From Candidatus Moraniibacteriota bacterium (GTDB lineage Bacteria; Patescibacteriota; Minisyncoccia; Moranbacterales; GCA-2747515): a stretch of 64,000 bases of DNA. Location: assembly GCA_016699795.1 (NCBI GenBank), contig CP065011.1, forward strand, positions 78,168 to 142,167. The letters are read 5' to 3'. The position numbers were made by a program, and so were the translations under genes. The notes beneath the pieces were generated by a model. That model was not told where the DNA came from. It searched no databases and worked only from the letters and a program-made list of their open reading frames with translations. Of the stretch, positions 6,438-64,000 are shown piece after piece; the first letter of the stretch is position 1, and the number at the start of each line of letters is the position of its first letter.

Positions 6438-8114
6438 CTACCCAGAAAAAGAACCTAATGCACTTTCAATTCCTCCCGAAGAAGAAATTGTTATGTGCTG
6501 TTTCTCCTCATTATTGGAAGATGCAGTTTGTTGATCTGCGGCCCAACCAAACGGTGAGGAGGTTGACGTGTTATTGTGTTGATCAGCTTTATAATCCTTT
6601 ACAAAATGATTTTCATCACTCTGAGAGGATGGGACTGATTTTGCTTTCGGAGCTACAGCTTTCGCTTTCACACCGAGGTATTGCTGAGAGCTTCCGGCAT
6701 TGTCCGTAAGAGCCGTAGTAGCAACCTGCGAGTTAGCACGAAGCCAACCCAATCCAGCATTCCACTCGATCTCCACGATGAAGTGAGGATCGGGGAATTG
6801 TACACCTACACCGATGCGCCAGACATCGTCCTTCGTAGCGATTCCGGCAAGGATTTTACCCCCGATCGGATTACTGACCACGTCGCTGATATGCCAGATC
6901 CCCAGCGTAAGCTCGGGTTTGACATTCCAGTCTGCTCGATCTAATTCGAACCGAAGAATGGCGCCGACCACGAGTTTCCTTGCGGACTCATGATTGACAG
7001 GTGTTCCTTTCCAGAGAATGTCCGTTTTGTTACCACTAAGAGGAATATCCACCCATGGCATAAAACGAACAGTTACACCAGTCTGATCATCAATTTTGAA
7101 CCGCTCCCGAAGTTGCAAAGCGATTCGAAGATCCATACCATCGGCACGGAGCTTTTCTACCAGACCATCCTTGGAGTATCCACGAGTTGAGCCTTGTCCC
7201 GCAAGGACAACGAATTCAACCGCATCGATGTCACCGACCGGTCCACGACCTTCGATACCAACGCCGTAGAAATCAGAGACTTCCACCCATTCCTTATTAT
7301 TGAAACGAGCGGACTTACCTGCGATCGACGGACCCACCTTCCAGCCGTTTCCAACTGGGAAAAGGCACGAGAAACGGAGTGATCCGCTTTCTCCACGTTG
7401 CCCCATCTGAGCCCAAAGAGCACCTACGGCTTCACAACCAAGACTTTCTTGGGTAGGAGCGGGAGCTGGTGGCGTGGGAACTGTTACTGTGTTCCAAGCA
7501 ACGTTTCCACACCGCATGGCGATGTCAACCTGCTTGCTACCATTCATGGATGGGCATGCCCAAACCATGATGTCAGTACCACTGGCGTTTTGAGTCTTGC
7601 CCCAATTCCCCTTGCCCATAGCCATACCTTCCCAGGTAAAACCTATGGGACGAGCAACGGCCTGACACTTTCCAGAAACAAGATCTCCCCGAACCTGCTC
7701 CACTTCCGAACTCGAAAGTCCGAATTGAGACAGGCGACGAGATTGCTCTGAAGTGAGTTGCAATTCTTCCGTCTTGTGCCATTCTTTCCGGAGGCGAAGA
7801 GGAAGAAGAGAATCAGCGCCGACTTTCTTCCACTGGCGAATACCAGAGGAAGATTCCAGAACAACAGGAGATTGTTTCACAGAAGAAACGACTATTCCTG
7901 ATTCTGGAAGCGTGAGGGTTTGTCCAACGCGAATCGTGTGAGGAGCCTTAATCCCATTCGCTCTGGCAATTTCTTGCCAAGAAGTCTGGGATTTATTGGC
8001 GATTTTGATCAAGGAGTCACCCTTGACCACCGTGTACGTCCCCGCCGAAGCAAGGGGCGCGCCAACAACCGCGAGAAAAATTCCCGCGATGACGAGAAGT
8101 TTCCTAAACATCAT
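6438..8114 (-). CDS. LysM (peptidoglycan-binding) domain protein with signal peptide and large beta-rich C-terminal domain
   Basis: Start trimmed to MMFRKLLVIAGIFLAVVGAPLASA (signal peptide; GGGAGG just upstream), which avoids a 62-nt overlap with the upstream gene. Canonical LysM: YTVVKGDSLIKIANKSQTSWQEIARANGIKAPHTIRVGQTLTLP. The C-terminal ~400 aa show an alternating hydrophobic beta-strand-like pattern (VTVRFMPW, LVVGAILRFELD, WRIGVGVQFP, FIVEIEWNAGLGW). Lies in the GC-rich island. Confidence 0.6.
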   Translation of the reverse strand: MMFRKLLVIAGIFLAVVGAPLASAGTYTVVKGDSLIKIANKSQTSWQEIARANGIKAPHTIRVGQTLTLPESGIVVSSVKQSPVVLESSSGIRQWKKVGADSLLPLRLRKEWHKTEELQLTSEQSRRLSQFGLSSSEVEQVRGDLVSGKCQAVARPIGFTWEGMAMGKGNWGKTQNASGTDIMVWACPSMNGSKQVDIAMRCGNVAWNTVTVPTPPAPAPTQESLGCEAVGALWAQMGQRGESGSLRFSCLFPVGNGWKVGPSIAGKSARFNNKEWVEVSDFYGVGIEGRGPVGDIDAVEFVVLAGQGSTRGYSKDGLVEKLRADGMDLRIALQLRERFKIDDQTGVTVRFMPWVDIPLSGNKTDILWKGTPVNHESARKLVVGAILRFELDRADWNVKPELTLGIWHISDVVSNPIGGKILAGIATKDDVWRIGVGVQFPDPHFIVEIEWNAGLGWLRANSQVATTALTDNAGSSQQYLGVKAKAVAPKAKSVPSSQSDENHFVKDYKADQHNNTSTSSPFGWAADQQTASSNNEEKQHITISSSGGIESALGSFSG

Positions 8115-8844
8115 AACCTCCCGAGGATTTCTCCTCTTTTTTAGAACTTTCTTTCTTCTCTTCAAGAAGGTTTGGCTCTTTGAGGAGCGCGCACCCTATT
8201 TGAAGGACTTTGGGAAGGGCTCCAATGGGTCCATACATTATCGGTCCGAGAATATCGGATGACGATATAGACCCAAGCCCACAAATTGCTGACCGTTCTT
8301 TCCAATCGACAAGCGATGGGACCGAAACAGCGTTGAGTGCATCTTCTCCGAAAAGGAGTCTCGCTCCTGATCCCGGTATATCATCGGAGATAAACGGGAA
8401 CTCTCCTCCGAGATGAGCATATATATCCCGAAGCTCGGAAGCACTTAACTCCTTTGCCACAGGGACCATATACGCCTTACCTCGCGCGGAGATGACTTCC
8501 ACACCTCGGAACTCACTCGAAGAAAAAACATACCCTTTTTCTCCTTTCGGATAAAGAGAAATGTTTTGACCCGAGACGCGAGCTCGAAATGCCTTTCGGC
8601 AAATTTCGACCTGCTTTTTGTCAAGAGTCATGTACTGTTTGCACATAACCTCTCGTTTCACCTCCTTCGGAAGTGAAACCTCATATCCCTTTGCCGAATG
8701 AATCGGCGGAGGGGCCACAAATGTCGTGGCATTGGCAAGATATTCCATCTCACCACCACTCAGACCCAACGACTCACGAGGAGTCATTGGAGCGCATCCC
8801 GACGCGATAATCGCGACGAGAACAAGACTCAACCTATTATTCAC
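8104..8844 (-). CDS. Lipoprotein (lipobox LVAIIASGC), uncharacterised
   Basis: Start reassigned to GTG at 8842-8844 with GGAGG 6 nt upstream (...agagaGGAGGtttgttGTGaat). The AT-rich 5' part of the track ORF (to 8940) matches flanking non-coding composition. Signal peptide VNNRLSLVLVAIIASG-C. GC-rich composition. Confidence 0.45.
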   Translation of the reverse strand: MNNRLSLVLVAIIASGCAPMTPRESLGLSGGEMEYLANATTFVAPPPIHSAKGYEVSLPKEVKREVMCKQYMTLDKKQVEICRKAFRARVSGQNISLYPKGEKGYVFSSSEFRGVEVISARGKAYMVPVAKELSASELRDIYAHLGGEFPFISDDIPGSGARLLFGEDALNAVSVPSLVDWKERSAICGLGSISSSDILGPIMYGPIGALPKVLQIGCALLKEPNLLEEKKESSKKEEKSSGGYDV

Positions 8845-15861: not shown

Positions 15862-17235
15862 TTATTTGCTTTCATTAAGAGTAATATCTCTATCCAAAAT
15901 TATTTCATGAAATTCTTTCTTTCCAGTTGAATCCATAATTTCTATTGCGTAAGGGACTTTCTTAAGACCTGCTTGTTTTTGAATTTTGAGATTATAAAAT
16001 TCTCCATCCAAGAAACTCGGAAGAGTATATTCGAACGTAAAAGTTTTCGAAGAATTTAAAGGAACTTGCACAAGTGTTCCGAAATATTTTTTCCCAAATT
16101 CATTTCCATACTGAACATCTTTAACAAGTCCCTGAGTTGATTCAAGCCAACTCCCTTCTGGAACATAGATACGGAGATATGATTGGTAGTCACCCGTTTT
16201 CCAATCTTTTGTTTTTCCATTGTGCGTATATGTTATCGAAAGAACAGCACGAGGTCTTTCCTTTGTAAAATCCAGGGAATATGAAACTTTTCTTTCTATA
16301 AGTCTATCACTTTTTAAAGCTCCTAAATTAGCATCTACCAATAAGAGATAATCATTCTTCCACGAAGAATCTGTAATACCGCCCCATGATCGTTCTTGAA
16401 TTATTTTATTCAAATAACTATCTTTAAAATAAAGTTGAATATCTTTGCTATATAAATCATCAAGAATCACTCTTGCCAATCGAATTTTCTTAGAAATATC
16501 TAAATCTCCTAATTGTGCCAAAACAGCTTTAGCGAGATCATTAAGCATAACTTTTCGATCGCCTCTTTTTATGCCCTGGTCCACAAATCCCTTTTCCACT
16601 TGATACTGTAATAATTCAATAGCATTTTCCGTTCCATATCTCCCAGGAAAGCCCTCTATTTCTACTGGACCAGTAATTTCAAGAGCGCTCAAAAGAACAT
16701 CTGTTGTTATACCAATAACACCATTAAATTTCTCTTCTCCCTTTCCCATCTCATAGAACATAAGAGCATTCTCTGCATTTGTTGGAAAATCAGGAGAATA
16801 ATTAGAATCTCGAAGTTTCCAAGAATCCACTCCCAAAGTCTCTTTCATTGGAAAAGGGGGTGAAATTATCGAGGGTATTCTTCCATCAAAATTCGCTGTA
16901 TCATGAACGGAAATATCTTTTACAAAACCATTCTTCACTTTTAAAACACCGAAAGAGCCAATAAAACCCCCTCCTGGTCGAAGTTCCCAGTAGTTTTGAA
17001 AAAGGAGAAGGTACGTTCTTTCAACATCATCATCCACCATAAGAAGATCCGCCAAGGAAACAACAGCTTCAATGTCCCCCTTAAATTCTTCAGACAAGGG
17101 AAGAAATTCCGCTGTTCGAGAAATCATACCAAAACCATTATTTTTTACTTCCAAGAAAAAATACCAACAAAAAAGAAAAATAACCGAAACCGTCCAAAAT
17201 ATAATCCAGAACCTTAAAGAATATTTTTTCGACAT
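15862..17235 (-). CDS. DUF4012 domain membrane-anchored protein
   Basis: 457 aa. N-terminal TM, then RPGGGFIGSFGVLKV... motif, the conserved GGFIGS core of DUF4012. Paralogous to the C-terminal domain of 40002-42953. Confidence 0.6.
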   Translation of the reverse strand: MSKKYSLRFWIIFWTVSVIFLFCWYFFLEVKNNGFGMISRTAEFLPLSEEFKGDIEAVVSLADLLMVDDDVERTYLLLFQNYWELRPGGGFIGSFGVLKVKNGFVKDISVHDTANFDGRIPSIISPPFPMKETLGVDSWKLRDSNYSPDFPTNAENALMFYEMGKGEEKFNGVIGITTDVLLSALEITGPVEIEGFPGRYGTENAIELLQYQVEKGFVDQGIKRGDRKVMLNDLAKAVLAQLGDLDISKKIRLARVILDDLYSKDIQLYFKDSYLNKIIQERSWGGITDSSWKNDYLLLVDANLGALKSDRLIERKVSYSLDFTKERPRAVLSITYTHNGKTKDWKTGDYQSYLRIYVPEGSWLESTQGLVKDVQYGNEFGKKYFGTLVQVPLNSSKTFTFEYTLPSFLDGEFYNLKIQKQAGLKKVPYAIEIMDSTGKKEFHEIILDRDITLNESK

Positions 17236-20658: not shown

Positions 20659-23253
20659 CTAATCCCCCACCGTAACCGTCATACTATGAGTAAGACGATT
20701 CCCTGCTTTATCTGTTACTTTGAGAGTAAGGGTGTAGATTCCATTTGAAACAGATTCAGGGATGATGAAGAAAGAATCTTTTTTGTTTGGTATCTTTTTC
20801 CATTCTTTATGATAGGGAGTGAGTTTTACTTGATAGGAGTCTATACCAGAGAAGTTATCTTTTGCAGGAAAGTCTATTCTTGTTCCTCTTGTTACGTTTT
20901 GTGTTTTTGGAAGTTCTGTTTTGAAGGTTGGAGCTTTTCTATCATAGATTACTTTAAACCATTGTGAGATGTCAGATTCATTTCCTGCTTCATCTATAAG
21001 TTTGATAGCATAGTGTCTTGAATCATTTTCTTTTTTTGGGAGAGAGTATTCCCAATTCCCATCTTTATCTATACGTGCAGTAGCTATTTTTCTTTTTGCT
21101 CCAAGATAGGTTCTTTGATACACAACGACAGTTCCATTCTTTGCTTCTTCATTCCTTCCTTTAAGTTTGGGACGTTCTTTTTGTGTATAGAAGGTTTCTC
21201 CTTCTTCTATGTTTGTTTTCTTTGTTCCTTTGAGTTCGAGAGTGATTTGAGATTTTGGTTCGAGGGTAGGTTCTTTTGTATCTATAGTAGTATCTTCTGA
21301 AGGAGATGTTTGTATGCTTGTACTATTTCCTACATTGTCTGTTGATCGTATGTATATGATGTGGTTTCCATCAGAGAGATTGGTGAGGGTGCAGGTGAAT
21401 GATTCTTCTTGTTCTTCAAAGAGAGAATCGTTTGAGGTGCATGGAGTCCATGATCCTGAGAGAGAGTCGAGTTGATACTCTACGTTTTGGATAGTTCCAT
21501 CAGTATCTTTTGTTGTTCCGGTAAGAATAAGAGTGGAATCATTGGTAAGAGGAGGGAGAGGGTTAAGAGTGAGGGAGGGATAGGTGAGGTCTATGGTGAA
21601 GGTGAAAGAAGATTCTTCTCCTTCTTTTGTGGTATTGGTATTGGAGTCAGTAGATCGTGTGTATATGGTATAGGTTCCATCTGTGAGTTCAGGAGTTGTG
21701 CAAGAGAAAGATTCTGATGCACTGTTAAAAGTTCCATCATCTGGGGTGCAGGGAGTCCAAGATCCGGAGGTAGAGTTGAGTTGGAATTCTACGGATTGGA
21801 TGGTACTAAGGAGATCAGTTGCTGTTCCGGTAAGAGTTGGTGTGGAGTCTGGGGTGGGAGTGGAGATGGGAGTGAGGGAGAGGGAGGGAGGAGTGGTGTC
21901 GTAAGAGAAGGCGGAGAGGAAAATGTCGGATCCTCCAAAACCCACCCCTGATTCATAGGGATCGGTAAAATCTCCATCACCGTTTAAATCAGCTATGTCG
22001 GTTATGCGACCCGTTATGTAAATATTTCCAGAAGAATTACTAATACTACTATAAACAAAATCATTTCCTACCCCTCCCAAACGTCTAGACCAGAGATATT
22101 CTCCAGAAGAAGTAAAGGCAGAAATAAAGGCATCTTGCCCCCCATACGGAACTCCGCCAGTTTCATTAACATCAAGAATATCTCCGTCACCATTAAGATC
22201 AGCTATGCCCGTTACGGATCCTGCTATATAAATATTTCTGGAAGTATCTCTACTACTAATATTCCAAATGTAATCGAAGCTCCCCCCTCCTAAACGTTTA
22301 GACCAAAGATATTCTCCAGAAGAAGTAAAGGCAGAAATAAAGGCATCTTGCCCCCCATACGGAACTCCGCCAGTTTCATTAACATCAAGAATATCTCCGT
22401 CACCATTAAGATCAGCATCACCAGTTATAAATCCTGTTACGTAAAGATTTCCAAAAAAATCAGTTATTACTTTATAATTAGTGTCTGTCTCTAATCCTCC
22501 TAAACGTTTAGACCAAAGATGTGTACCATCTGATGTAAAGGCGGAAAGAAAGGCATCCGGCTCTCCATACGGAGCTACGACAGTTTCATTGAAATCATTA
22601 GTATCACCATCGCCATTAAAATCAGCTGTACCCCTCGTTTGTCCTGAAATATAGATACCTCCAGAAAAATCCACAGAACTGCCTCGACCAGTATCTTGTT
22701 CTACCCCTCCCAAACGTTTAGACCAAAGATATTCTCCAGAAGAAGTAAAGGCAGAAATAAAGGCATCTTGCCCCCCATACGGAACTCCGCCAGTTTCATT
22801 AACATCAAGAATATCTCCGTCACCATTAAGATCAGCTATGCCCGTTACGGATCCTGCTACATAAAGATTTCCTGAGGAATCAAGAGTTATACTCGAACCA
22901 TTATCAGTTCCCGTTCCTCCAAGACGCTTTGACCAGAGATATGTTCCGTCTGAGGAAAAAACGGAGAAAAAAGCATCAGTTCCTCCGAATCCTATTCCTG
23001 ATTCATAGGGATCAGTAAAGTCTCCATCGCCATTTAAGTCAGCGTCTCCAGTAATATATTCTGCAACATACATATTTCCTGAGGAACCTATAGCTATGTA
23101 ATAACCAGTATCGCTCCCTGCTCCTCCCAACCGCTTTGACCACTCATGTGTGACCGTTGCTGCCTGAGCATACTGTGAAAGAAAAAAGAAAACAAAGAAT
23201 ATTCCGAAAAGTGTGGGGAGAAGATGTGATTTTTTATAAGAAAAAATTCTCAT
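20659..23253 (-). CDS. Large secreted SBBP-repeat beta-propeller protein with FG-GAP-like DxNGDGD calcium-binding inserts, PT-rich linker and C-terminal Ig-like domains
   Basis: 864 aa. Signal peptide, then ~6 repeats of LWSKRLGG.G.D.G..I..DSSGN.YV.G..TG.ADLNGDGD..D.NE.GG.PYGG.DAFISAFTS.G.YLW. Then TPISTPTPDSTPTLTGT linker, then two similar domains (TDGTYTIYTRSTDSNTN / SDGNHIIYIRSTDNVGN). Confidence 0.65.
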   Translation of the reverse strand: MRIFSYKKSHLLPTLFGIFFVFFFLSQYAQAATVTHEWSKRLGGAGSDTGYYIAIGSSGNMYVAEYITGDADLNGDGDFTDPYESGIGFGGTDAFFSVFSSDGTYLWSKRLGGTGTDNGSSITLDSSGNLYVAGSVTGIADLNGDGDILDVNETGGVPYGGQDAFISAFTSSGEYLWSKRLGGVEQDTGRGSSVDFSGGIYISGQTRGTADFNGDGDTNDFNETVVAPYGEPDAFLSAFTSDGTHLWSKRLGGLETDTNYKVITDFFGNLYVTGFITGDADLNGDGDILDVNETGGVPYGGQDAFISAFTSSGEYLWSKRLGGGSFDYIWNISSRDTSRNIYIAGSVTGIADLNGDGDILDVNETGGVPYGGQDAFISAFTSSGEYLWSRRLGGVGNDFVYSSISNSSGNIYITGRITDIADLNGDGDFTDPYESGVGFGGSDIFLSAFSYDTTPPSLSLTPISTPTPDSTPTLTGTATDLLSTIQSVEFQLNSTSGSWTPCTPDDGTFNSASESFSCTTPELTDGTYTIYTRSTDSNTNTTKEGEESSFTFTIDLTYPSLTLNPLPPLTNDSTLILTGTTKDTDGTIQNVEYQLDSLSGSWTPCTSNDSLFEEQEESFTCTLTNLSDGNHIIYIRSTDNVGNSTSIQTSPSEDTTIDTKEPTLEPKSQITLELKGTKKTNIEEGETFYTQKERPKLKGRNEEAKNGTVVVYQRTYLGAKRKIATARIDKDGNWEYSLPKKENDSRHYAIKLIDEAGNESDISQWFKVIYDRKAPTFKTELPKTQNVTRGTRIDFPAKDNFSGIDSYQVKLTPYHKEWKKIPNKKDSFFIIPESVSNGIYTLTLKVTDKAGNRLTHSMTVTVGD
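22094..22859. repeat. Three perfectly identical 110-bp intragenic repeats (two extend to 133 bp) inside the SBBP gene
   Basis: The sequence agatattctccagaagaagtaaaggcagaaataaaggcatcttgccccccatacggaactccgccagtttcattaacatcaagaatatctccgtcaccattaagatcagc occurs at 22094-22203, 22307-22416 and 22727-22836. Copies 1 and 3 stay identical to 22226/22859. A diverged copy lies at about 22516. Confidence 0.9.
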
Positions 23254-23413
23254 ATTTTTTTATTTCATTCTATTTTTTTACTTTCTCCTATTCTATCATA
23301 TTCATAAAAGAGAACAAAGAAATTGCATAAAAAAATTCTAAAACAAAAGACTATTTCTAAAAAGAGGAGGATATTTCTTTTTCATATACTGTGTATAATC
23401 TATAAAAAAGTAA

Positions 23414-34322: not shown

Positions 34323-36623
34323 TTACTTTATAAAATTTCCATCTTTTTTCATTTGATCGAGTCGAACTGAAAGGATTTGTGAAACACCATCCTCCATAGT
34401 AACTCCATAAAGAACATCCGCTTTTTGCATAGTTTCTCGATTGTGAGTAATAACAATAAACTGAGTTCGCGACGAAAGAGTTCTTAATAAATTTCCAAAA
34501 CGCTTTGAGTTCGTTTCATCCAAAGAAGCCTCAACTTCATCAAGAAAGACAAAGGGTGGTGGATTATAAGAAATAATTGCAAAAAGAAGAGCCAAAGAAA
34601 CTAAAGATCTCTCTCCCCCAGAAAGAACGCCCAATTGATCTATTTTTTTCTTAGGAGGTTTTACAATGATATCGACACCCCACTTTGCATATTTTCTTTC
34701 ATTTATCAAAACTTCATCATATTCATCATAGAATTTATCCTCTTCCTCTTCTTGATCTTCAGAGAATTCTTTTACCTTTTCCAAACTTGCCGTACCACCA
34801 TCAAACATTAATGTAAAATATTTTCCAAATTCTTGATTTATTTTCTCAAAAGCTTCTGAAAAATCTTTCTCTATTCGAATATTCATTTCACGTATTACTT
34901 TTTCCAAAGAAATAACAGCTTGCTCAAGATCATTATGTTCACGAACAAGAAAAGAATATCGTTCATTAGTTTCTGAGTATTCCTGTGCAATCATAGGATC
35001 TATACCCCCTATCATAGCTAATTGAGATTTAAGTCTCTCTATAAAGCGAAATGTTTCATCATTCGCCTGTATATCTTCCCCAATTTCAAGAGCGAGCGAT
35101 TTTGGATCTCGACCCAGTTCTGATTGAATTTCCCTTTCTAAATCTTCTTTTCTGATTTCACATCGAGTAAAAGCAATTTTTTTCTCGTTAAAAGATTTTC
35201 TTACTTGATAAAGATTCTCCCGAATATTAACTATTTCTTTTTCGAGGGAAAAATAAAGAGTACTTGCATTTTTCGTATCTGCCTCCAAAAGAAGAATTTC
35301 TTTTTCTTTTTTAAGAATTTCTTTTTCTTTTTTAAGAATTTCTCTAGAAAATTCTTGAACCTGTTCTTCTCCTTTTTGAATCTTTTCCTCAAAAAATTTC
35401 CTTTCTTTTTCTAAAATTTCTTTTTCTCTTCCAATTCGAACCGTTGATTGAGCACAATCTTCATAAAGAGAATCTATTTCTTCAAGAAAATTATCAAGAA
35501 ACTTTTTTCTCTCTTCCAAAGAAACTTTTTTTTCTCTTCCAAAGATTATATTCATTTCTTGAAAAGATTTTTTGAGACTCAAAAGTCGCTTCCTCACAAA
35601 AGGAAGATCCACAGGAATGACATCAAAAATTCTCTGATGATTCTTTCTTTCTTTTTCAACATCGATCATTCCCTGACATTGAGATCTCTTTCTTTCAAAT
35701 TCGGAAATTTCTCTTCTTAATAATGCGATCTTTTTTTGAAGTAAATTACTCTGAGAAGTTTCTTGCATTTTGTTTGAAACCGAACTTTGTTGAGAAATAT
35801 ATTTTTGTAATTTTTGTTCCAATACATTCTCCTCCTTTTCTAAAATTAAAAGTATAGATTGAAATTCTTCATATTCACAAGAAAATCTTTTCCACAAAAC
35901 TCTATAATAGGATGATTGGATAATACGAAGTTGATCTTCAATTTCTCTTCTTTGTTCAGCACGTTTTGATTGACGTTTCAAAATACGCAATCTCGGTTCT
36001 ATTTCTTCAATAAGCTTCCCTGTTATAAGAAGATTTTCTCTTGTTGTTATAAGTCTTTTTATCGAACGGTCCCGTTTTATTTGATAAGGTTTCACACCAG
36101 CAGCTTCTTCTAAAATACTTCTTCGCTCCATCGATGAAGCTGATAATATTGCATCAGACATCCCTTGGTTAAGAACGCATTGACTTTCTTTTCCAATACC
36201 GATAGAAGCAAAAAGGTCAATAACATCTAAAAGTCTAACTTGCGTTCCATTTATAAGATATTCTCCTTCTCCGCTTTTATAAATCTTTCTTGTTACCAAA
36301 ACATCCTGATAATCAACATCCATCTTTTTGTCTGAATTATCAAAGACAAGAGTTACTGTTCCAGAGCTCATCATTGATCTCTTTTTCGAACCAGAGAAGA
36401 TAACATCATGGGATTTTTTTGCACGAAGACTTTTTGTAGATTGTTCACCCATAACCCAGCGAAGAGCATCTACAATATTTGATTTTCCAGAACCATTCGG
36501 ACCCACAATAGCTGTCACACCAATACGATCAGGATCTCGATCTTTTTGTAAAACACAAAAAAAGAGCTCTGTTTTAGTAGCAAAAGATTTAAAACCATTT
36601 AAAATTATTTTTTGTAAATACAT
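34323..36623 (-). CDS. smc: SMC-family chromosome segregation ATPase, short form (766 aa, no obvious hinge)
   Basis: N-terminus KIILNGFKSFATKT...IVGPNGSGKSNIVDALRWVMGEQS (SMC head, Walker A). C-terminus LSGGERSLVSLALLFAI...FLDEVEASLD (signature plus Walker B). Long coiled coil between. Much shorter than canonical ~1150-aa SMC. Confidence 0.65.
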   Translation of the reverse strand: MYLQKIILNGFKSFATKTELFFCVLQKDRDPDRIGVTAIVGPNGSGKSNIVDALRWVMGEQSTKSLRAKKSHDVIFSGSKKRSMMSSGTVTLVFDNSDKKMDVDYQDVLVTRKIYKSGEGEYLINGTQVRLLDVIDLFASIGIGKESQCVLNQGMSDAILSASSMERRSILEEAAGVKPYQIKRDRSIKRLITTRENLLITGKLIEEIEPRLRILKRQSKRAEQRREIEDQLRIIQSSYYRVLWKRFSCEYEEFQSILLILEKEENVLEQKLQKYISQQSSVSNKMQETSQSNLLQKKIALLRREISEFERKRSQCQGMIDVEKERKNHQRIFDVIPVDLPFVRKRLLSLKKSFQEMNIIFGREKKVSLEERKKFLDNFLEEIDSLYEDCAQSTVRIGREKEILEKERKFFEEKIQKGEEQVQEFSREILKKEKEILKKEKEILLLEADTKNASTLYFSLEKEIVNIRENLYQVRKSFNEKKIAFTRCEIRKEDLEREIQSELGRDPKSLALEIGEDIQANDETFRFIERLKSQLAMIGGIDPMIAQEYSETNERYSFLVREHNDLEQAVISLEKVIREMNIRIEKDFSEAFEKINQEFGKYFTLMFDGGTASLEKVKEFSEDQEEEEDKFYDEYDEVLINERKYAKWGVDIIVKPPKKKIDQLGVLSGGERSLVSLALLFAIISYNPPPFVFLDEVEASLDETNSKRFGNLLRTLSSRTQFIVITHNRETMQKADVLYGVTMEDGVSQILSVRLDQMKKDGNFIK
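35295..35336. repeat. Perfect 21-bp tandem duplication inside smc coiled-coil region
   Basis: aatttctttttcttttttaag x2 (35295-35315, 35316-35336). Encodes KEKEILK-KEKEILK. Confidence 0.85.
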
Positions 36624-40001: not shown

Positions 40002-42953
40002 TTATTCAAAAACAGCTCCAAAAAACATATCCGTATCCCAATCAAAGGTTTTTCCTATAAGTTCCCCTTCTTTTGATTCTTCGATATTTTTATTTCTATA
40101 TAAAATATCCCATTTTTCTGGATATTGCAAAGTATAGGAGTATTTTCTTCCCATATTTCCCGATTGTTTTTGTGCAAGTAAAGAAAAAGATTTAATCTTC
40201 TGAGAACTTTTTTCTTGAACTCGGAAAGGTAAAATATACGTATACGTAACAGTTACTTCTTCTTTTGGACTCACGTAAACCCAATTTCCAAAAACAGTCT
40301 TTCCAGATTCTTCAAAAATTTGAGTCCCTGAATCATCCCGTATCATAGTAGATTCAATGTGAGAAACGGTTTCATCTGAAGTAAAGCCTAGCGTTTTATA
40401 ATCAAGTGGATTTCGGATTGCTTCTCGAGTATGTCCCGTAACAGAAATTAATTGAGATCCTTTTGGTACGTATACACGGAGATAATCAGCGTTAACACCA
40501 TTATACCATTGATACTCCGTATCTCCTCCATTATGTTTTCGATGTATGGATACCGTGTTTTGAATAGATCCATCTTCCATAATCTTCGATTCATGTCGAA
40601 CATCTTCTTCTATAACCTTATCTGTTTTAAAGCCATTAATATTTGAATGAATAATATTTAAATAATCATAATCCGTTTCTAAAATATCGCCAGACCAACC
40701 GGAAGATTCATAAAGAGTTTGGATCTTTTCGTTTCGTGAATACAAAAGAATATGTTTTTCACTCAAAGAATGAATCATTAAGGAAAGTATAGCAGAAACC
40801 CCCTCTTCACGTACATTCAAGAATAATTTTTCTATAAGAAGTGAAGAAAGCTCACCAAGGATTTTTTTTGGACGATTTTCTTTTGGATCATAACCTTCTT
40901 CAACTTCATATTGAATAAGGTCCATAAAATTTTCAGCATCAATAGTCACCTCATATTCTGGAATATCGATAGGGCCTGAAATTTGCAATAATCGCTCTAA
41001 TACTTTTGGCGTAATAGCAATAACACCATCCACGGTTGGTCCCCCTCCTTTTTCATAGAAATACATTGCTTTTTCTGCTGAAAGAGGAAAATGTGGGAAC
41101 CAATTGCTATCATGAAGACTCCATCCAGCGCTAATTTTTCTTATAGGTTCAGGAGGGATGGTATCTACTCGAAGCTGACCATCAGGATTAAAAACATCGT
41201 CCACAAAAAACTTTCGGATATGTCCCTTTTCAACATCAAGAAAACCGTAACTTCCTATAAAACCACCAGTAGCTCTCACTTCATGAGTATTCTGAAAAAG
41301 AAAGAGATATTTTCTAGGACCATTAGCCCCTACCATATCAGAAAATGCTTCCATATTCTCAACATAATGATCTGTTAAAGAAATAATCTCAGGAAGAGAT
41401 GATTTGAGAAGAAGAAATAATTCTCGCTTTTCCTCTGGTAAATGATCTATCTGTATATTCTCAGTCTGTTTTTGAGCTTCAACAAGATATAAACGCGCCT
41501 CTGCAATATTTTTTGAAAATTCTTCCAAAAAAACAATAAATGTTGTGTCTTCTGGATTTTTTGATGTAATAGCATCTCCTGTTTCCAACAAAAGTCTCGC
41601 CGAAGCGCTCATACTTTTTCCTGCGTAAGACAAATTCATTGCAATTTCCAAGGCACTTTTTCCCGAAGATATTTTTGAAATAAAAGGTATAGACAAATAA
41701 GATCCCCCAAGAATACCAGCCCAATCATTAAATTGAGTAGAAAGATTTTCAAATTGTTTCCCCGCATCATTAAAATAATTTTCGGATGAAAGGAAATCGA
41801 GTTCTTTCATTTTTTCCACAGCAAACATAGCATCGTCCAAACCTTCTGTACTCACTCCCAAAACATACTGCTCTAAAGCGAGTCCTCTGAAAAGAAAAAT
41901 GCCTGAAAATACAAAAATAAATACAACCGCTGAAGAAAGTGCAAAAGGTTTTATACTTAAGAAAGAAAAATTTTCTCTTTTTTTTATTCTCTTATTCTTA
42001 TTTTTATAAAAAGATTGTATTGAGGATTTATTCAAAAAATACTTTCTTGCATTAAAAAAACCTAAAAATATACTCTCTTTCTTCTTTTCTTTAAGGGAAA
42101 GTTCTGGGGTTATTTTTTTAATAGGAAATGTTGCAAGTTCTTTCTTGTGTTCTTTCTCGGTTTTCTTGAAAAGTGAGAAAAGTGAACGTTTCTCTGGTTT
42201 AGGTAAAGAGATTGAGGGCGCTTTCCATGGAAGTGTTGTTTTATCTTCTTTTTTTAGCTCCTTCGATTGGATTACTTGTGAGAAAAGGGATACCTTTTTT
42301 AATTCTTTGGGAGGTGGAACAGGAATTCCTCCAAAAAAATATCCTGTTTCTCTTAAGCCCAGAGAAGGCTTCGAGGATCTACTTTTCAAAGAATTTTCCC
42401 CTTTCTTCAAAGCCCATTCTTTATTTATACTCTCAAATTCGGGTTTTTGAATTTTTATTTCTTCTGAAGAAAAAATATTTTTTTCAAGAATCTTCTTTTT
42501 TTTCAACAACGATACTTCTTTTCTTTCATGAGAAAAGATGCTATCTTTTTCTTCACTATAAAACACTTTATTCTTTATAGTTTTTTCTTCTTTTTTAAGA
42601 TTATGAACAATCTTAATTTTGTGTTCATTTTTTTCAAGAGCCTTCTTTGAAATCACTCTATTCTCCTCTACTTTTTGCTCTTTAATCTGAAATAATTTCT
42701 CTATATCAGTATCCGCTCCAACTCGAATACCTTTAAAAATAATTTTTTTCTTATTTTCCTCTTCCTTATTTTCTTTAGAAATAATTATCTCGCGATTTAT
42801 AACTTTCGTTTTTTCCAATTTTATTATTTCTTTTTCATTTGAGACCAATTCTTTTTTCAAGGAAATATCATTTTGAGAATAGAAAAAACCCCTCTTTTGA
42901 GTTTTTTTAGGGCCCATGCTATCGATATTCACTATTTTCTTTTTCTTTTCCAC
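40002..42953 (-). CDS. Large DUF4012-domain membrane protein with a ~340-aa Lys/Glu-rich cytoplasmic N-terminus
   Basis: 983 aa. Low-complexity K/E-rich N-terminal third, single TM (AVVFIFVFSGIFLF), then extracellular domain containing RATGGFIGSYGFLDVEKG and a downstream region paralogous to 15862-17235. Confidence 0.6.
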   Translation of the reverse strand: MEKKKKIVNIDSMGPKKTQKRGFFYSQNDISLKKELVSNEKEIIKLEKTKVINREIIISKENKEEENKKKIIFKGIRVGADTDIEKLFQIKEQKVEENRVISKKALEKNEHKIKIVHNLKKEEKTIKNKVFYSEEKDSIFSHERKEVSLLKKKKILEKNIFSSEEIKIQKPEFESINKEWALKKGENSLKSRSSKPSLGLRETGYFFGGIPVPPPKELKKVSLFSQVIQSKELKKEDKTTLPWKAPSISLPKPEKRSLFSLFKKTEKEHKKELATFPIKKITPELSLKEKKKESIFLGFFNARKYFLNKSSIQSFYKNKNKRIKKRENFSFLSIKPFALSSAVVFIFVFSGIFLFRGLALEQYVLGVSTEGLDDAMFAVEKMKELDFLSSENYFNDAGKQFENLSTQFNDWAGILGGSYLSIPFISKISSGKSALEIAMNLSYAGKSMSASARLLLETGDAITSKNPEDTTFIVFLEEFSKNIAEARLYLVEAQKQTENIQIDHLPEEKRELFLLLKSSLPEIISLTDHYVENMEAFSDMVGANGPRKYLFLFQNTHEVRATGGFIGSYGFLDVEKGHIRKFFVDDVFNPDGQLRVDTIPPEPIRKISAGWSLHDSNWFPHFPLSAEKAMYFYEKGGGPTVDGVIAITPKVLERLLQISGPIDIPEYEVTIDAENFMDLIQYEVEEGYDPKENRPKKILGELSSLLIEKLFLNVREEGVSAILSLMIHSLSEKHILLYSRNEKIQTLYESSGWSGDILETDYDYLNIIHSNINGFKTDKVIEEDVRHESKIMEDGSIQNTVSIHRKHNGGDTEYQWYNGVNADYLRVYVPKGSQLISVTGHTREAIRNPLDYKTLGFTSDETVSHIESTMIRDDSGTQIFEESGKTVFGNWVYVSPKEEVTVTYTYILPFRVQEKSSQKIKSFSLLAQKQSGNMGRKYSYTLQYPEKWDILYRNKNIEESKEGELIGKTFDWDTDMFFGAVFE

Positions 42954-60107: not shown

Positions 60108-63100
60108 CTACCCTCCCGTCCAAGCAAAGATTTCTTTGAAGTTCTTTATGATGAGTTCTACAACAGATTCTTTTGTTTGTGGTGTAAGGGTGATGTAGTC
60201 TTTGGTTATGGTTTCATTCCCACTCAGATCTTTTACTATGACTTTGTAAGAGTAGAGAGTTCCTGGTTTCCAAGAGGTGAGTACAATGATGTGATTCTTT
60301 GTTGGGGAAGAACTTACATTCACTGTTTTTTCTTCTCCTGCTCTTCCTTCTTTGTAGATGAGGGAGGAAGAAGCATCTTCATCTGTTTGCCAGTTAATAA
60401 TCATTTGTACTTTTCCGTTTTGTGAAAGAGCGGAGTCGGTAGAGACTCTTTCTACTGTAGGAGAAGTTTCATCTTTTTGCATAGTGAATTCTATCTCATC
60501 AGAGAGAGTTTCATTTCCCATATCATCTCTGACTCGTACAGTAAGAACGTAGTTTTCTCCAGGAGTGAGTTCTTTGAGGGTGAGGGAGTGAGTTTGGAGG
60601 AGGGAGGGATTTCCTTCACTCTTTTGATCTTCTTCTTTGTTTTTGTTTTTGTAGGTTACAAGAGAGTCGGTAAGAGTATCAGTAAGGAAGTTTACTTTTG
60701 CTTCTCTGTCTGAAAGAACTTCTATCTTGATTTCTTTGATTTGTGGTGGAGACTTTGGTTCAAAGGTAGAGTCGGAAGAAGAGAAGAGATTTTTTGATTC
60801 ATCTTCTCCTTTTACTCGGAAGTGGTAGGTAGAGTTTTCTAAAAGATTGTTTATGATAATTTCATGATCTTTTTTGAGTTCTTCACTTTTTCTTGTTTGT
60901 CCATAGTTTTCTGTGTTTCCATATTCAACAATAGAGGTAGTGGGAGTGGAAGTTTTCCATGTGATAGTTGTTTCCCCTATTTGTTTGGAAGAAGCTTTAA
61001 TGGAAGAGATGGAAGAAGGAGATTGCGTTTGGAAGGTTTGTTGGGAGGAGGTGCCTATGTTTCCGGCGGTGTCGTAGGAAAGTGCAGAATAATAGTATTT
61101 TGTAGATGGGATGAGACCTCGTAGGGTTACGCTATGCGCTGTGGAAAATTTAGTAGGATTTTTATTTACCAAATCATCTCCCGCCATATTTCCATACTCT
61201 TTTACACTCCCATAACTCACCAAACTATTCCCCACTTCATCCGTCTCCCAACTGACGACTGCACTCTCTCCTGTAATGTCTTTGACTTTGACTCCTGAGA
61301 TAGAGGGAGGAGTAGATTCTGCTTGTTCACTTCCACTGTCTACTTGTTTGAGTTTTGTTGTGAAGCTTTTTTCTTCACTCTCTATGAGGGTTCCAAGATT
61401 ATCTTCACAAAGAAGTTTGTAGAAGTAGGTTGTGTTAAAGATGAGTCCTCCAAGATGCAGGGAATGGAGTGTGTCATAGATTCCTGTCGCTTCTGTTTGA
61501 GGAACTTCTTGGTAGTTTCTTGATTGGGTTCCATATTCAAGGATGCAGTTTGCTGCTTGATCCGTCTGGAAGGTTATGACTGCTTTTTGATCAGTGAGTA
61601 CTTTAGGAGGATCACTGATAGTATGAATCTTTGAAAGAGGTGCATGATTGTATTCTGGATCTAAGGTTGTTTTCATTGTTTGTATATCACTCTGTGATTC
61701 GTTTTGATTGATATCTTTAACACTCACTTGATATTCATACTCTGTATCAGGAGTAAGAGTATCGAGTACCCTGTAGTGAGATCTATCGTATGTTGTTCCT
61801 TGTTCTGTTTGTGTGAAGGTAAGGCTTCCTTTTTTTCTGTACTGAAGGAGGAAGGATGCTTCTTCATCTGTGTTTGCTGTAATAACTGCTTTGTCATTTG
61901 AGATAAGAGATGTTTGAAGATTCGTTATGGTAGGAGGTGTTTCGTCGAGTGTTGTAGAGAATTGAAAATAGTTTCCTCCATTATTGTCATTGGCAATGTT
62001 TCCTTGTGAGTCGGTGGAGGTAACGTAGAAATAGTAGGTGGTTCCTTGAGTAAGAGCATCTAAGGTTACTTGATGATTTTTTGTAAGAACACTTGATCCG
62101 GAGAGAGTGATAGGATCGATAAGAGATCCATTCTTGTTTTCACTGTAATGGAGTACAGAGTCTGCAGGGACATTCGTATTCCAGAATATGGTTGCTTGTG
62201 TGTTAGAAGCACTTGATACCGCTACACCACTGATAGAAGGTCCAGGATTCGTTGTGACTTCATATCCATTGCCATTATTGTCATTGACTCCGGTATTGCC
62301 TTGAGGATCAGTAGAGGCAACTCTAAAGAAGTAGGGAGTGTTTGGTGTGAGGTTGGTAAGAGTGACTCTATGAAGTCCTGATTGTGCTTGGGTGTCAGCA
62401 TAGGTAGAGACTCCTGTTTGTTTGGTATAGGTGTTGGGAGTGGTTGCATATTCTACACGAGAGTCAGAGAGTTCATCTGTTTCCCATGTGATAGTTACGG
62501 TTGTGGTGTCTTTAGATTCTACGGTTACGTTTTGTAGAACAGGAGGGGTTTGATCTGATCCTCCTCCACCTTCTCCGAAGTCTTGAATACCATTTGCTTT
62601 CATCGTAACGGTTTGTGAGAAGAAAGAAACATTTCCTGGTGTGTCTGTTGTCTTTGCTTTGTAGGTGTAGAGAATGTCTGGTTGTGGGGTAGCATCAGTA
62701 AGGAAGTTTGTTGTTCTTGAGGTTATGATATTTTGAAGCGTATAGGTAGTAGCGTCATCACTTCTATAGAGTTTGTAGTTTCCGAATCCTGTTGGAGGTT
62801 CTTCTATTGTTTTGAATCCTACGAAGGCTCGGTATTCTGGAGGGGTAAGAAGCATATTACTCGTATCTTGAGAAATGACTCGTGTAGGAGTTTCTGGAGT
62901 AGTTGTGTGTATGGTTTGTGTTTCATTCCCGTATTGATCTTTGAAGCGAGTATAGACAATGTCGGGATCAGTTTCGAGTTTTATTGTTACCGTTGCATTA
63001 AAAGGTTCCCAAGGAGAGTTGGTAAGGTTTTCGTCAAGAGAAATCTTCATCTGTGTTGGAGAGTCATCACTGACTCCAAGAGTAAGAACAGATGTGGTGG

Positions 63101-64000
63101 AGGGAATGGTGAGGTCTTGAGTGGAAGCATCAACAAGGAGGGAGGGATTGGTGGGAGTTTTTGTATCGAGGGTAAAGGTATTTGATTCAGCTCGTGCGAT
63201 ATTATTCGCTCCTTCATTGTCACTTACGGTTACACGGATTTTTGCATTGGTAAGATAGAAAGATTCACTTACGAGAGAAGGAGTCCAGGTAGCACTGTGT
63301 GTTGTGTACGTATCTTGATTCACTGTTTTGTTTTGTATATCTTCGGGAGCTAGAGTATTGGAAGCGATATTGATCCAACTACTTCCATTGTAGTATTCAA
63401 AGCTCGGAGTAACTATTCCTGGAGTATTGGTTCCGGTATTGGTATCTTCATCTTTTGTTTCGTACGTGATAGTTACTGTTTTATCAGTATTGGGAGTAGT
63501 GGTTACATTTTGAATCATAGGGAAAGCATTCACAACATAGCCTACTTTTACATCATCGACTTGAGGTTGAGAAAGAAGGTCAGGAGAAGAAAGATCTACT
63601 TTGTATTGAAAGAAGCGATCTTCAAAGATATCTTTCATATCTTGAGGGATAGCACTGGCTGTGCAACTTACCGTTGTATTGTTTTTTGTACAATGTGTAG
63701 TAAGAGAAGAGGGAGTAGATTGTGCTATTTGTATCCAGGGGGAAGAAGAAAGATTTCCTTTCGTTCCTGCAGTTTTGAGAGAAAGAGTTACTGAAGAACC
63801 TGTTGGGAGTATTTCATTTTCTTTCCATTCTATTGTTCCCATGACATTAGCATCACTACTGGAATCAAATGCTGAAGAGATAAGAGAACCAGCAAGGTAT
63901 CCAGATTTAAGTGAACCTGCGCTTCCATCAGTTGCAGGTGCGGTAGCTCCTTTTGTTCCTCCGAGTGTTTGAATCGTTTGATTGGTAAATGTTTTGTTTT
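60108..64000 (-). CDS. Giant secreted surface protein with ~10 fibronectin-III-like repeats; N-terminus beyond the right window edge (over 1290 aa)
   Basis: The reading frame is open from 60108 to position 64000; the track reports only the first in-window ATG at 63842. Repeated ~100-aa modules of pattern VTITWETDE..S.VEYG....Y......T.H.VTL..L.P.T.YYFRV.S.D..GN. C-terminus ...ELIIKNFKEIFAWTGG. Confidence 0.6.
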   Translation of the reverse strand, partial: NKTFTNQTIQTLGGTKGATAPATDGSAGSLKSGYLAGSLISSAFDSSSDANVMGTIEWKENEILPTGSSVTLSLKTAGTKGNLSSSPWIQIAQSTPSSLTTHCTKNNTTVSCTASAIPQDMKDIFEDRFFQYKVDLSSPDLLSQPQVDDVKVGYVVNAFPMIQNVTTTPNTDKTVTITYETKDEDTNTGTNTPGIVTPSFEYYNGSSWINIASNTLAPEDIQNKTVNQDTYTTHSATWTPSLVSESFYLTNAKIRVTVSDNEGANNIARAESNTFTLDTKTPTNPSLLVDASTQDLTIPSTTSVLTLGVSDDSPTQMKISLDENLTNSPWEPFNATVTIKLETDPDIVYTRFKDQYGNETQTIHTTTPETPTRVISQDTSNMLLTPPEYRAFVGFKTIEEPPTGFGNYKLYRSDDATTYTLQNIITSRTTNFLTDATPQPDILYTYKAKTTDTPGNVSFFSQTVTMKANGIQDFGEGGGGSDQTPPVLQNVTVESKDTTTVTITWETDELSDSRVEYATTPNTYTKQTGVSTYADTQAQSGLHRVTLTNLTPNTPYFFRVASTDPQGNTGVNDNNGNGYEVTTNPGPSISGVAVSSASNTQATIFWNTNVPADSVLHYSENKNGSLIDPITLSGSSVLTKNHQVTLDALTQGTTYYFYVTSTDSQGNIANDNNGGNYFQFSTTLDETPPTITNLQTSLISNDKAVITANTDEEASFLLQYRKKGSLTFTQTEQGTTYDRSHYRVLDTLTPDTEYEYQVSVKDINQNESQSDIQTMKTTLDPEYNHAPLSKIHTISDPPKVLTDQKAVITFQTDQAANCILEYGTQSRNYQEVPQTEATGIYDTLHSLHLGGLIFNTTYFYKLLCEDNLGTLIESEEKSFTTKLKQVDSGSEQAESTPPSISGVKVKDITGESAVVSWETDEVGNSLVSYGSVKEYGNMAGDDLVNKNPTKFSTAHSVTLRGLIPSTKYYYSALSYDTAGNIGTSSQQTFQTQSPSSISSIKASSKQIGETTITWKTSTPTTSIVEYGNTENYGQTRKSEELKKDHEIIINNLLENSTYHFRVKGEDESKNLFSSSDSTFEPKSPPQIKEIKIEVLSDREAKVNFLTDTLTDSLVTYKNKNKEEDQKSEGNPSLLQTHSLTLKELTPGENYVLTVRVRDDMGNETLSDEIEFTMQKDETSPTVERVSTDSALSQNGKVQMIINWQTDEDASSSLIYKEGRAGEEKTVNVSSSPTKNHIIVLTSWKPGTLYSYKVIVKDLSGNETITKDYITLTPQTKESVVELIIKNFKEIFAWTGG

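What the first reader, a model, noticed from the sequence alone, without database searches (positions are those of the whole stretch)
22094..22859. Homogenised 110-133 bp perfect repeats inside the SBBP/FG-GAP surface protein gene
Three copies are 100% identical over 110 bp, and two are identical over 133 bp, spaced about 212 and 420 bp apart. A diverged copy lies between them, and the protein repeats elsewhere are only moderately similar. This implies recent intragenic gene conversion or slipped recombination. It could be a substrate for expansion or contraction of propeller blades, giving antigenic or size variation of a Ca-binding surface adhesin.
Basis: seen in the sequence. Interest (0 to 1): 0.5.

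Follow-up and report, generated by a model that had tools for sequence, protein, structure and literature searches.

The report
Recent gene conversion between propeller blades
Three of the six repeat units of a secreted beta-propeller protein gene, in an uncultivated Moraniibacteriota (CPR) bacterium, share a stretch of 110-133 bases that is letter-for-letter identical; this is the footprint of recent copying between repeats within one gene, which is real but is a familiar way for repetitive surface-protein genes to evolve.

Summary
Exact repeats of 133, 125 and 110 bp link three of the six ~210-bp units of an 864-aa gene on the minus strand (20659-23253). The other unit pairs are only 52-73% identical, and these are the only exact repeats of 30 bp or more in the 64-kb window apart from one 31-bp tandem. 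A permutation test gives P<1e-4. Only the C-terminal ~60% of each unit is identical, and the end points differ between pairs. This points to at least two short-patch gene-conversion events rather than duplication of whole units.

The protein (NCBI QQS61403.1, Moraniibacteriota MAG) has a signal peptide, an SBBP beta-propeller and an Ig-like stalk. The tract covers the blade-connecting DLNGDGD loop and the next two strands.

- This gene has six units, whereas seven is the mode in homologues.
- A paralogue in the same genome has seven identical units and a C-terminal 311 aa identical to this protein.
- Two distant relatives carry their own 129-bp and 92-bp exact tracts over the same part of the unit.

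All tract offsets are multiples of three, so unequal crossover between them would stay in frame. Variation within a population could not be tested. This is an ordinary kind of event and a clean example of it.

The parts
20659..23253 (-). Gene for an 864-aa secreted SBBP beta-propeller / Ig-like protein (NCBI QQS61403.1, MAG Candidatus Moraniibacteriota).
   Evidence: ORF list and translation. Pfam SBBP 82 bits plus Big_13, Big_7 and Y_Y_Y. 100% match to P0001 = QQS61403.1 on a 1,186,598-bp contig.
23161..23253 (-). Signal peptide (aa 1-31, ...YAQA|ATVTHE). There is no lipobox cysteine.
   Evidence: Read directly from the translation. The cleavage site is an inference from the AxA motif.
21883..23142 (-). 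Six ~70-aa SBBP units: R1 22936-23142, R2 22726-22935, R3 22516-22725, R4 22306-22515, R5 22093-22305, R6 21883-22092.
22712..22859 (-). Converted tract, copy in unit R2. It is identical to the R5 copy over 22727-22859 and to the R4 copy over 22712-22836. It encodes (GSVTGI)ADLNGDGDILDVNETGGVPYGGQDAFISAFTSSGEYL(WSKRL).
22292..22416 (-). Converted tract, copy in unit R4 (125 bp identical to R2, 110 bp identical to R5).
22094..22226 (-). Converted tract, copy in unit R5 (133 bp identical to R2). Near-identity continues to 22068, giving 159 nt with 2 mismatches.
22517..22626 (-). Unconverted counterpart of the tract in unit R3 (about 72% identical, with a mixed substitution spectrum).
21898..21993 (-). 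Loop-plus-strand segment of R6 that resembles that of R1 (22948-23043). It is 76% identical in nucleotides. The ADLNGDGDFTDPYESGxGFGG stretch matches at 20 of 21 residues. In the 37 codons compared (ADLNGDGD loop plus flanks), 14 differ synonymously. It serves as an internal contrast to the recent tract.
20662..21882 (-). Ig-like stalk: two OmpL47-type/Big_7 domains, then Big_13 and a Ca_tandemer-like region. The last 311 aa (20662-21594) are identical in protein sequence to paralogue QQS60844.1, which lies elsewhere on the chromosome.

Best explanation
This is a real chromosomal gene of a Moraniibacteriota (CPR) bacterium. It encodes a secreted protein with an SBBP-type beta-propeller head on an Ig-like stalk. 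The 110-133-bp identical stretches are footprints of recent, short-patch, non-reciprocal homologous recombination (gene conversion) between the ~210-bp blade-coding units R2, R4 and R5. At least two events are needed, because the end points differ.

Each tract runs from the conserved ADLNGDGD motif to the conserved WSKRLGG motif of the next unit. It therefore overwrites the blade-connecting loop, which is a probable blade-bridging Ca2+ site by analogy with CylK, together with the two inner strands of the next blade. The outer strands of each unit keep their old, diverged sequence.

The three in-frame identical tracts now provide homology for unequal crossover that would remove or add 1, 2 or 3 blades. 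The gene has six units in a family where seven is the mode, so one such contraction may already have happened.

Shown: the identity, its statistical significance, its mosaic structure, the protein architecture, and the unit counts in homologues and in the paralogue. Inferred: the recombination mechanism, the Ca2+ role of the loop, the loss of a blade, and any phenotypic variation.
For: - The exact repeats and their coordinates are established.
- Identity is 100% in the tract against 0.52-0.73 between units elsewhere, and the N-terminal parts of R2/R4/R5 are only 0.59-0.63 identical.
- The permutation test gives 0 of 10,000.
- End points differ and a near-identical extension exists.
- Internal contrast: the R1/R6 loop is conserved in protein but has 14 synonymous codon differences in 37 codons, so selection on the protein does not keep synonymous sites identical.
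- Codon usage is native, with GC3 0.28 against 0.17-0.28 in most neighbouring genes.
- Independent genes show the same thing over the same sub-unit segment: P0005 has a 129-bp exact tract covering GDADLNGDGD...YQWSKR, and P0083 has a 92-bp tract covering YVAG...WQR.
- Seven units is the mode in homologues (46 proteins), and ours has six.
- The paralogue in the same genome, P0002, has seven identical units.
Against: - No reads, strains or close orthologues were available, so neither the recency in absolute time nor any variation in copy number has been observed.
- How the MAG was assembled could not be verified.
- The position of the supposedly lost blade cannot be located, because the units show no positional orthology with those of 7-unit homologues.
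- CylK lacks the DLNGDGD motif itself, so Ca2+ binding by this loop rests on the motif and on topology only.
Confidence: 0.82

Rival explanations
1. Assembly or polishing artefact. The three tracts are similar but not identical in the organism, and were made identical, or a unit was dropped, by repeat collapse or by short reads mis-mapped during polishing.
For: The sequence is a MAG. Paralogue P0075 differs from this gene by a 1-nt CCC-to-CC frameshift, which could be a sequencing error. Pereira and Lupas warn that blade counts in identical repeats are hard to assemble (PMC9218822).
Against: Polishing can erase only a few differences between copies that are already near-identical. It cannot turn about 60-70% identity into 100% over 110-133 bp with sharp, pair-specific borders. 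Every unit has a unique N-terminal part, so order and number are anchored by unique sequence. The same assembly resolves seven protein-identical 70-aa units in P0002 on a single 1.19-Mb contig, which suggests reads long enough to span such arrays. Independent assemblies of relatives show equivalent tracts.
Confidence: 0.05
2. Recent duplication of whole blades, by unequal crossover or slippage, followed by very fast divergence of the N-terminal part of each unit, for example under diversifying selection.
For: Blade amplification is the common route to repetitive propellers (PMC9218822). Paralogue P0002 is such a case.
Against: The N-terminal parts of R2/R4/R5 are 59-63% identical at nucleotide level, no closer than any other pair and including synonymous sites, while the adjoining tract has zero changes. 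The copies are not all adjacent, since R3 lies between R2 and R4. The borders differ between pairs.
Confidence: 0.05
3. The identity is kept by selection on the nucleotide sequence itself, for example an embedded RNA or DNA element or a DGR template/variable-region pair.
For: None was found. This was considered only because exact identity of non-adjacent segments can mark functional elements.
Against: Rfam at gathering threshold finds nothing in the gene. The copies have no adenine-specific mismatches, and the diverged R3 copy differs by a mixed spectrum of substitutions. The segment is ordinary blade-coding sequence, homologous to the other units.
Confidence: 0.02

Closest known systems
Highly repetitive ('locally' and 'globally' repetitive) beta-propellers produced by ongoing blade amplification and differentiation (Pereira and Lupas 2022, PMC9218822; Afanasieva et al. 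2019, PMC6805158)
   Same: Blades within one propeller are identical at protein and DNA level. Blade numbers deviate from the family median. Paralogue P0002, with seven identical blades, is a textbook 'globally repetitive' case. This gene has consecutive units R4/R5 at 73% and R2/R5 at 81% aa identity, which exceeds their 60% criterion locally.
   Different: Here the identity covers only part of each unit and links non-adjacent units, with different borders for each pair. That indicates patchy conversion between old, diverged blades rather than fresh amplification of a whole blade. The SBBP family is not mentioned in that survey.
CylK C-terminal seven-bladed beta-propeller (PDB 7ron/7fh6; Braffman et al. 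2022, PMC8916777)
   Different: CylK is a cytoplasmic or secreted alkylating enzyme with an N-terminal beta-roll domain and seven blades, and it lacks the DLNGDGD motif. Identity is 24-27%. Nothing suggests that the present protein is an enzyme.
Tandem-repeat surface proteins whose repeat number changes by homologous recombination (for example the group B streptococcal alpha C protein/Rib and staphylococcal Aap/SasG; from my own knowledge, not checked here)
   Same: A secreted protein with DNA-identical, in-frame repeats that can recombine to change its length.
   Different: Those repeats are independent beads on a string, so any number of them folds. Here the repeats are blades of a closed toroid, so a change in number alters or breaks the fold. 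Variation between strains has not been shown here.
Leptospira SBBP-repeat lipoprotein LipL53 family (NCBIfam NF047494) and OmpL47-type domains (NF047446)
   Same: It shares the SBBP units and the OmpL47-type beta-barrel domain (56 bits against a cut-off of 40).
   Different: The LipL53 equivalog score is 79 against a cut-off of 400. There is no lipobox cysteine, and the organism is different.

Membership tests
SBBP beta-propeller repeat proteins (Pfam PF06739) | Sequence match to the SBBP repeat above Pfam's gathering score | tested here: met
   82.2 bits against a cut-off of 20.5. The source's own name is 'SBBP repeat-containing protein'.
SBBP beta-propeller repeat proteins (Pfam PF06739) | Beta-propeller fold built from four-stranded blades | tested here: met
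SBBP beta-propeller repeat proteins (Pfam PF06739) | Seven blades (the family's name; also the mode among homologues) | tested here: not met
FG-GAP / integrin-alpha type propeller (Pfam PF01839, PF13517) | Match to FG-GAP repeat models | tested here: not met
   No FG-GAP or VCBS family at E<=0.01. FG-GAP genes lie next to the SBBP genes in the relatives' loci L002/L003, but not here.
Locally highly repetitive beta-propellers (Pereira and Lupas 2022) | Consecutive blades with more than 60% pairwise identity embedded among diverged blades | tested here: met
   R4/R5 are 73% identical (consecutive), R2/R5 81% and R2/R4 79%. Other pairs are 48-62%. The criterion is as stated in PMC9218822.
Locally highly repetitive beta-propellers (Pereira and Lupas 2022) | Origin by amplification of a whole blade | tested here: not met
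   Identity is confined to the C-terminal ~60% of the unit, and the N-terminal parts are at background divergence.
Gene-conversion tracts (operational definition as in Sawyer's GENECONV test) | Run of concordant polymorphic sites between two paralogous segments that is longer than permutation allows | tested here: met
   Runs of 64-82 sites, 0 of 10,000 permutations, for the three pairs only.
Cassette-based antigenic variation loci (pilE/pilS or vlsE type) | One expression site plus promoterless silent cassettes nearby | tested here: not met
   tblastn finds no further copy or fragment in the 64-kb window. The two paralogues are full-length genes with their own signal peptides, far away on the chromosome.
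Repeat-number-variable surface proteins | Different repeat numbers among strains or among reads of one population | not testable with these tools
   No reads. The exact protein and its paralogue are absent from the contig index. There is no close relative in genome contigs or metagenome contigs.
Diversity-generating retroelement target | Template and variable repeats that differ at adenines of the template | tested here: not met
   The copies are identical, and the R3 copy differs by a mixed spectrum.
LipL53-family lipoprotein (NCBIfam NF047494) | Score above the equivalog cut-off, and a lipobox | tested here: not met
   79 bits against a cut-off of 400. There is no Cys at the signal-peptide cleavage site.

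The most novel reading that the evidence does not exclude
In this CPR bacterium the gene belongs to a three-member, recombination-driven family of surface proteins. The members share a signal peptide and a DNA-identical Ig-like stalk but carry interchangeable propeller heads: a six-unit mosaic SBBP head, a freshly amplified SBBP head of seven identical blades, and a PQQ-like head. Under this reading, intragenic and intergenic conversion and unequal crossover change blade number and loop identity at appreciable frequency within the population. That would give an episymbiont with a 1.19-Mb genome a way to vary its host-attachment surface. The six-unit gene would then be a contraction allele caught soon after the event.
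Probability: 0.12. Interest if true: 0.6.

Novelty: new member of a known kind. Interest (0 to 1): 0.3.

Why it matters
The locus is a clean, statistically unambiguous example of partial-blade gene conversion inside a beta-propeller gene. It sits in a genome that also holds a paralogue with seven identical blades and an identical stalk. It therefore shows side by side the two processes thought to drive propeller evolution, namely homogenisation or amplification and differentiation, and it does so in a reduced CPR genome. If long reads showed heterogeneity in blade number, the locus would be a tractable case of fold-level size variation in a surface protein of an uncultivated episymbiont. If they do not, it is ordinary concerted evolution of repeats.

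Tried and rejected
1. DNA of the paralogues. The look-up of encoding contigs has no record of P0001 or P0002. The genome-contig scan found only a 42%-identical Ig-domain hit in a Limnocylindria MAG, and the metagenome scan found only a 27% hit. DNA-level comparison with the paralogues, and any comparison between strains, was therefore impossible. The only DNA-level information came from P0075's frameshifted tail, which matches the +1 frame of this gene with one difference.

2. Provenance of the MAG. Two literature searches did not identify the assembly, so the sequencing technology remains unverified.

3. Locating the missing blade. Scoring each of the six units against units 1-7 of 43 seven-unit homologues showed no positional orthology. 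MAFFT's placement of the gap inside R4 is therefore not meaningful.

4. Testing AlphaFold's bias towards seven-fold geometry. A single-sequence prediction failed (pLDDT 36), and coordinates cannot be inspected, so whether the six-unit ring closes remains open.

5. Horizontal transfer as the cause of the gene's high G+C (0.40-0.47 against about 0.30 in the flanks). This was rejected, because the excess is at codon position 2 and GC3 is native.

6. DGR, RNA-element and silent-cassette explanations were rejected.

7. Promoter and terminator scans around the gene gave nothing beyond chance.

Full report
**1. The observation**

An exhaustive scan for exact matches in 21800-23300 gives three maximal repeats.
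- 22094-22226 equals 22727-22859 (133 bp).
- 22292-22416 equals 22712-22836 (125 bp).
- 22094-22203 equals 22307-22416 (110 bp).

The repeat finder and TRF see a 210-bp period with 3.7 copies at 76%. In the whole 64-kb window the only other exact repeat of 30 bp or more, direct or inverted, is a trivial 31-bp tandem.

**2. The gene**

The repeats lie in a minus-strand ORF, 20659-23253, of 864 aa. The product is identical to NCBI QQS61403.1, 'MAG: SBBP repeat-containing protein [Candidatus Moraniibacteriota bacterium]', on a single 1,186,598-bp contig.

The protein has three parts.
- A signal peptide ending in an AQA|A site, with no lipobox cysteine (read from the sequence).
- Six ~70-aa units, each beginning WS(K/R)RLGG, spanning aa 38-457.
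- An Ig-like stalk with OmpL47-type/Big_7, Y_Y_Y and Big_13 domains and an NCBIfam Ca_tandemer match.

Pfam gives SBBP at 82 bits and no FG-GAP match.

The neighbouring genes are ordinary CPR chromosome content: a beta-helix protein, DUF4012, a sugar epimerase, prephenate dehydratase, ribosomal protein S9, MurJ and an SMC-like protein. The gene's G+C (0.40-0.47 against about 0.30 in the flanks) comes from codon position 2. GC3 is 0.28 against 0.17-0.28 in most neighbouring genes, so the codon usage is native.

**3. Anatomy of the identity**

A codon alignment of the six units shows that units R2, R4 and R5 share the sequence for ADLNGDGDILDVNETGGVPYGGQDAFISAFTSSGEYL without a single nucleotide difference. 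Their N-terminal parts are only 59-63% identical, no closer than any other pair (range 0.52-0.73).

The borders differ between pairs.
- R2/R5 identity begins 23 nt further 5' in the gene sense, within GSVTGI. Past the 133-bp exact run it continues with 2 mismatches in 26 nt, giving 159 nt in all.
- R2/R4 identity begins at the ADL codons and runs 15 nt into the next unit (WSKRL).

At least two events are therefore needed.

A permutation of the 134 polymorphic columns gives runs of 64-82 concordant sites for these three pairs. This was reached in 0 of 10,000 permutations. All twelve other pairs have runs of 4-9 sites.

There is an internal contrast. The equivalent loops of R1 and R6 are almost identical in protein (20 of 21 residues) but differ synonymously at 14 of 37 codons. 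Protein-level constraint therefore does not keep synonymous sites identical in this gene.

Unit R3, the 'diverged copy', is 72% identical to the tract and differs by a mixed substitution spectrum.

**4. Structure**

An AlphaFold2 model of aa 32-470, built with 42 homologues, is confident: pLDDT 88.8, pTM 0.87 and 24 strands.

The closest solved structure is the seven-bladed propeller of CylK.
- phmmer gives E 5e-28.
- Foldseek gives E 9e-23.

The strand pattern places the 24-residue loop with DLNGDGD between the last strand of one blade and the first strand of the next. In CylK the blade-connecting loops hold a Ca2+ ion at each junction (PMC8916777). CylK lacks the DLNGDGD motif itself, so Ca2+ binding here is an inference.

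The converted tract thus covers the blade-connecting loop plus the next two strands (DAFISAF and YLWSKRLGG). The unconverted part covers the two remaining strands.

**5. Six blades in a seven-blade family**

A unit HMM finds exactly six units here. Seven is the mode among the 120 best homologues (46 proteins), and double propellers have about 14.

Which unit might be missing cannot be determined, because the units show no positional orthology.

All three offsets between tracts (213, 420, 633) are multiples of three. Unequal crossover between them would therefore delete or add 1-3 blades in frame. I regard one past contraction as plausible (about 0.4-0.5) but unproven.

**6. The family in the same genome**

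Two paralogues lie elsewhere on the contig and not in the window.

QQS60844.1 (P0002, 941 aa) has seven units that are identical in protein sequence: a 399-aa run repeats at offset 70. Its last 311 aa but two are identical to aa 554-864 of this protein, with a sharp border at IDLTYPSL.

QQS61606.1 (P0075) has a similar signal peptide, a PQQ-like propeller, and 72 aa identical to aa 551-622 of this protein. It then shifts frame. Its tail equals the +1-frame translation of this gene except for one synonymous-site change, so the DNA is near-identical and differs by a CCC-to-CC deletion.

Recombination therefore also homogenises modules between genes in this genome.

**7. Relatives**

- The gene for P0005 (51% identical over the aligned 61% of the query, a different assembly) has its own 129-bp exact repeat at offset 627. 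It covers GDADLNGDGD...YQWSKR, the same part of the unit. It also has tracts of 63, 63 and 59 bp.
- P0004 has at most 44 bp of exact repeat.
- P0083 has a 92-bp tract covering YVAG...WQR.
- At protein level, 5 of the 120 proteins (this one, its paralogue P0002 and three other homologues) have an identical tract of 40 aa or more, and 29 have one of 20-39 aa.
- In the relatives' loci, the C-terminal module of an FG-GAP gene on one contig is 95% identical over 565 bp to that of the SBBP gene on the other contig.

Patchy homogenisation anchored on the two conserved motifs is thus a recurrent trait of the family, though not a universal one.

**8. Comparison with what is known**

Pereira and Lupas (PMC9218822) describe 'globally' and 'locally' repetitive propellers in most propeller lineages. 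Their cases include DNA-identical blades, deviating blade numbers and disrupted genes. They attribute these to continuous amplification from single blades. SBBP is not mentioned in that paper.

P0002 fits their global class. The window gene meets their local criterion, with R4/R5 at 73% identity. It differs in that only part of each blade is identical, and in that non-adjacent blades are linked. This indicates conversion between old blades rather than amplification.

Repeat-number variation of surface proteins through recombination is well known from other bacteria (my own knowledge, not checked here).

**9. Verdict**

The phenomenon is a new member of a known kind. Assembly or polishing artefact, whole-unit duplication followed by divergence, and nucleotide-level functional elements are each unlikely, for the reasons given under rival explanations. 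Population-level variation and a role as an adhesin remain untested.

Noticed in passing
outside the window (same 1,186,598-bp contig): proteins P0002 = QQS60844.1 and P0075 = QQS61606.1: P0002 has seven protein-identical 70-aa SBBP units, and its C-terminal 311 aa are identical to window aa 554-864. P0075 has a PQQ-like propeller on the same stalk module and is frameshifted by one base (CCC to CC) relative to the window gene. The three genes therefore share modules across the chromosome.
   Followed up: partly
window 23247-23292: An 18-bp tandem repeat (2.6 copies, consensus TTCTCCTATTTTTTTAT on the + strand) overlaps the start codon and the region just upstream of the SBBP gene. In gene orientation it reads as repeated A-rich/AGGAGA-like segments. 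Its significance is unknown.
   Followed up: no
window 6438-8165 (-): A 575-aa LysM-domain protein has GC3 0.45, far above the 0.17-0.28 of most other genes sampled in the window. It may be foreign, or it may be compositionally unusual because of low-complexity repeats.
   Followed up: no
window 35292-35343 (inside the SMC-like gene 34323-36623): A 31-bp exact repeat at offset 21, that is, a short in-frame tandem duplication inside the coiled-coil ATPase gene.
   Followed up: no
window 60108-63842 (-): A 1244-aa protein with four Pur_ac_phosph_N-like and several Fn3 domains. It is another large, repetitive, probably surface-exposed protein. Homologues with this architecture plus Big_13 appeared among the hits to the SBBP protein's stalk (for example P0069, P0071, P0078).
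   Followed up: no
L002 5234-5794 versus L003 7859-8423: In the relatives' loci (ENA ERZ25039503), an FG-GAP propeller gene sits directly upstream of the SBBP gene. The 3' end of the FG-GAP gene on one contig is 95% identical over 565 bp to the 3' end of the SBBP gene on the other contig. This shows the same sharing of stalk modules between different propeller heads.
   Followed up: partly
L002 6001-8079 (gene for P0005): The units show a three-unit periodicity (1~4, 2~5, 3~6; exact tracts at offset 627). This suggests a three-blade segmental duplication in that relative. No such periodicity is seen in the window gene.
   Followed up: partly
window 15862-17235 and 40002-42953: Two DUF4012 proteins (457 and 983 aa) lie in one 64-kb window, both close to cell-envelope genes.
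   Followed up: no
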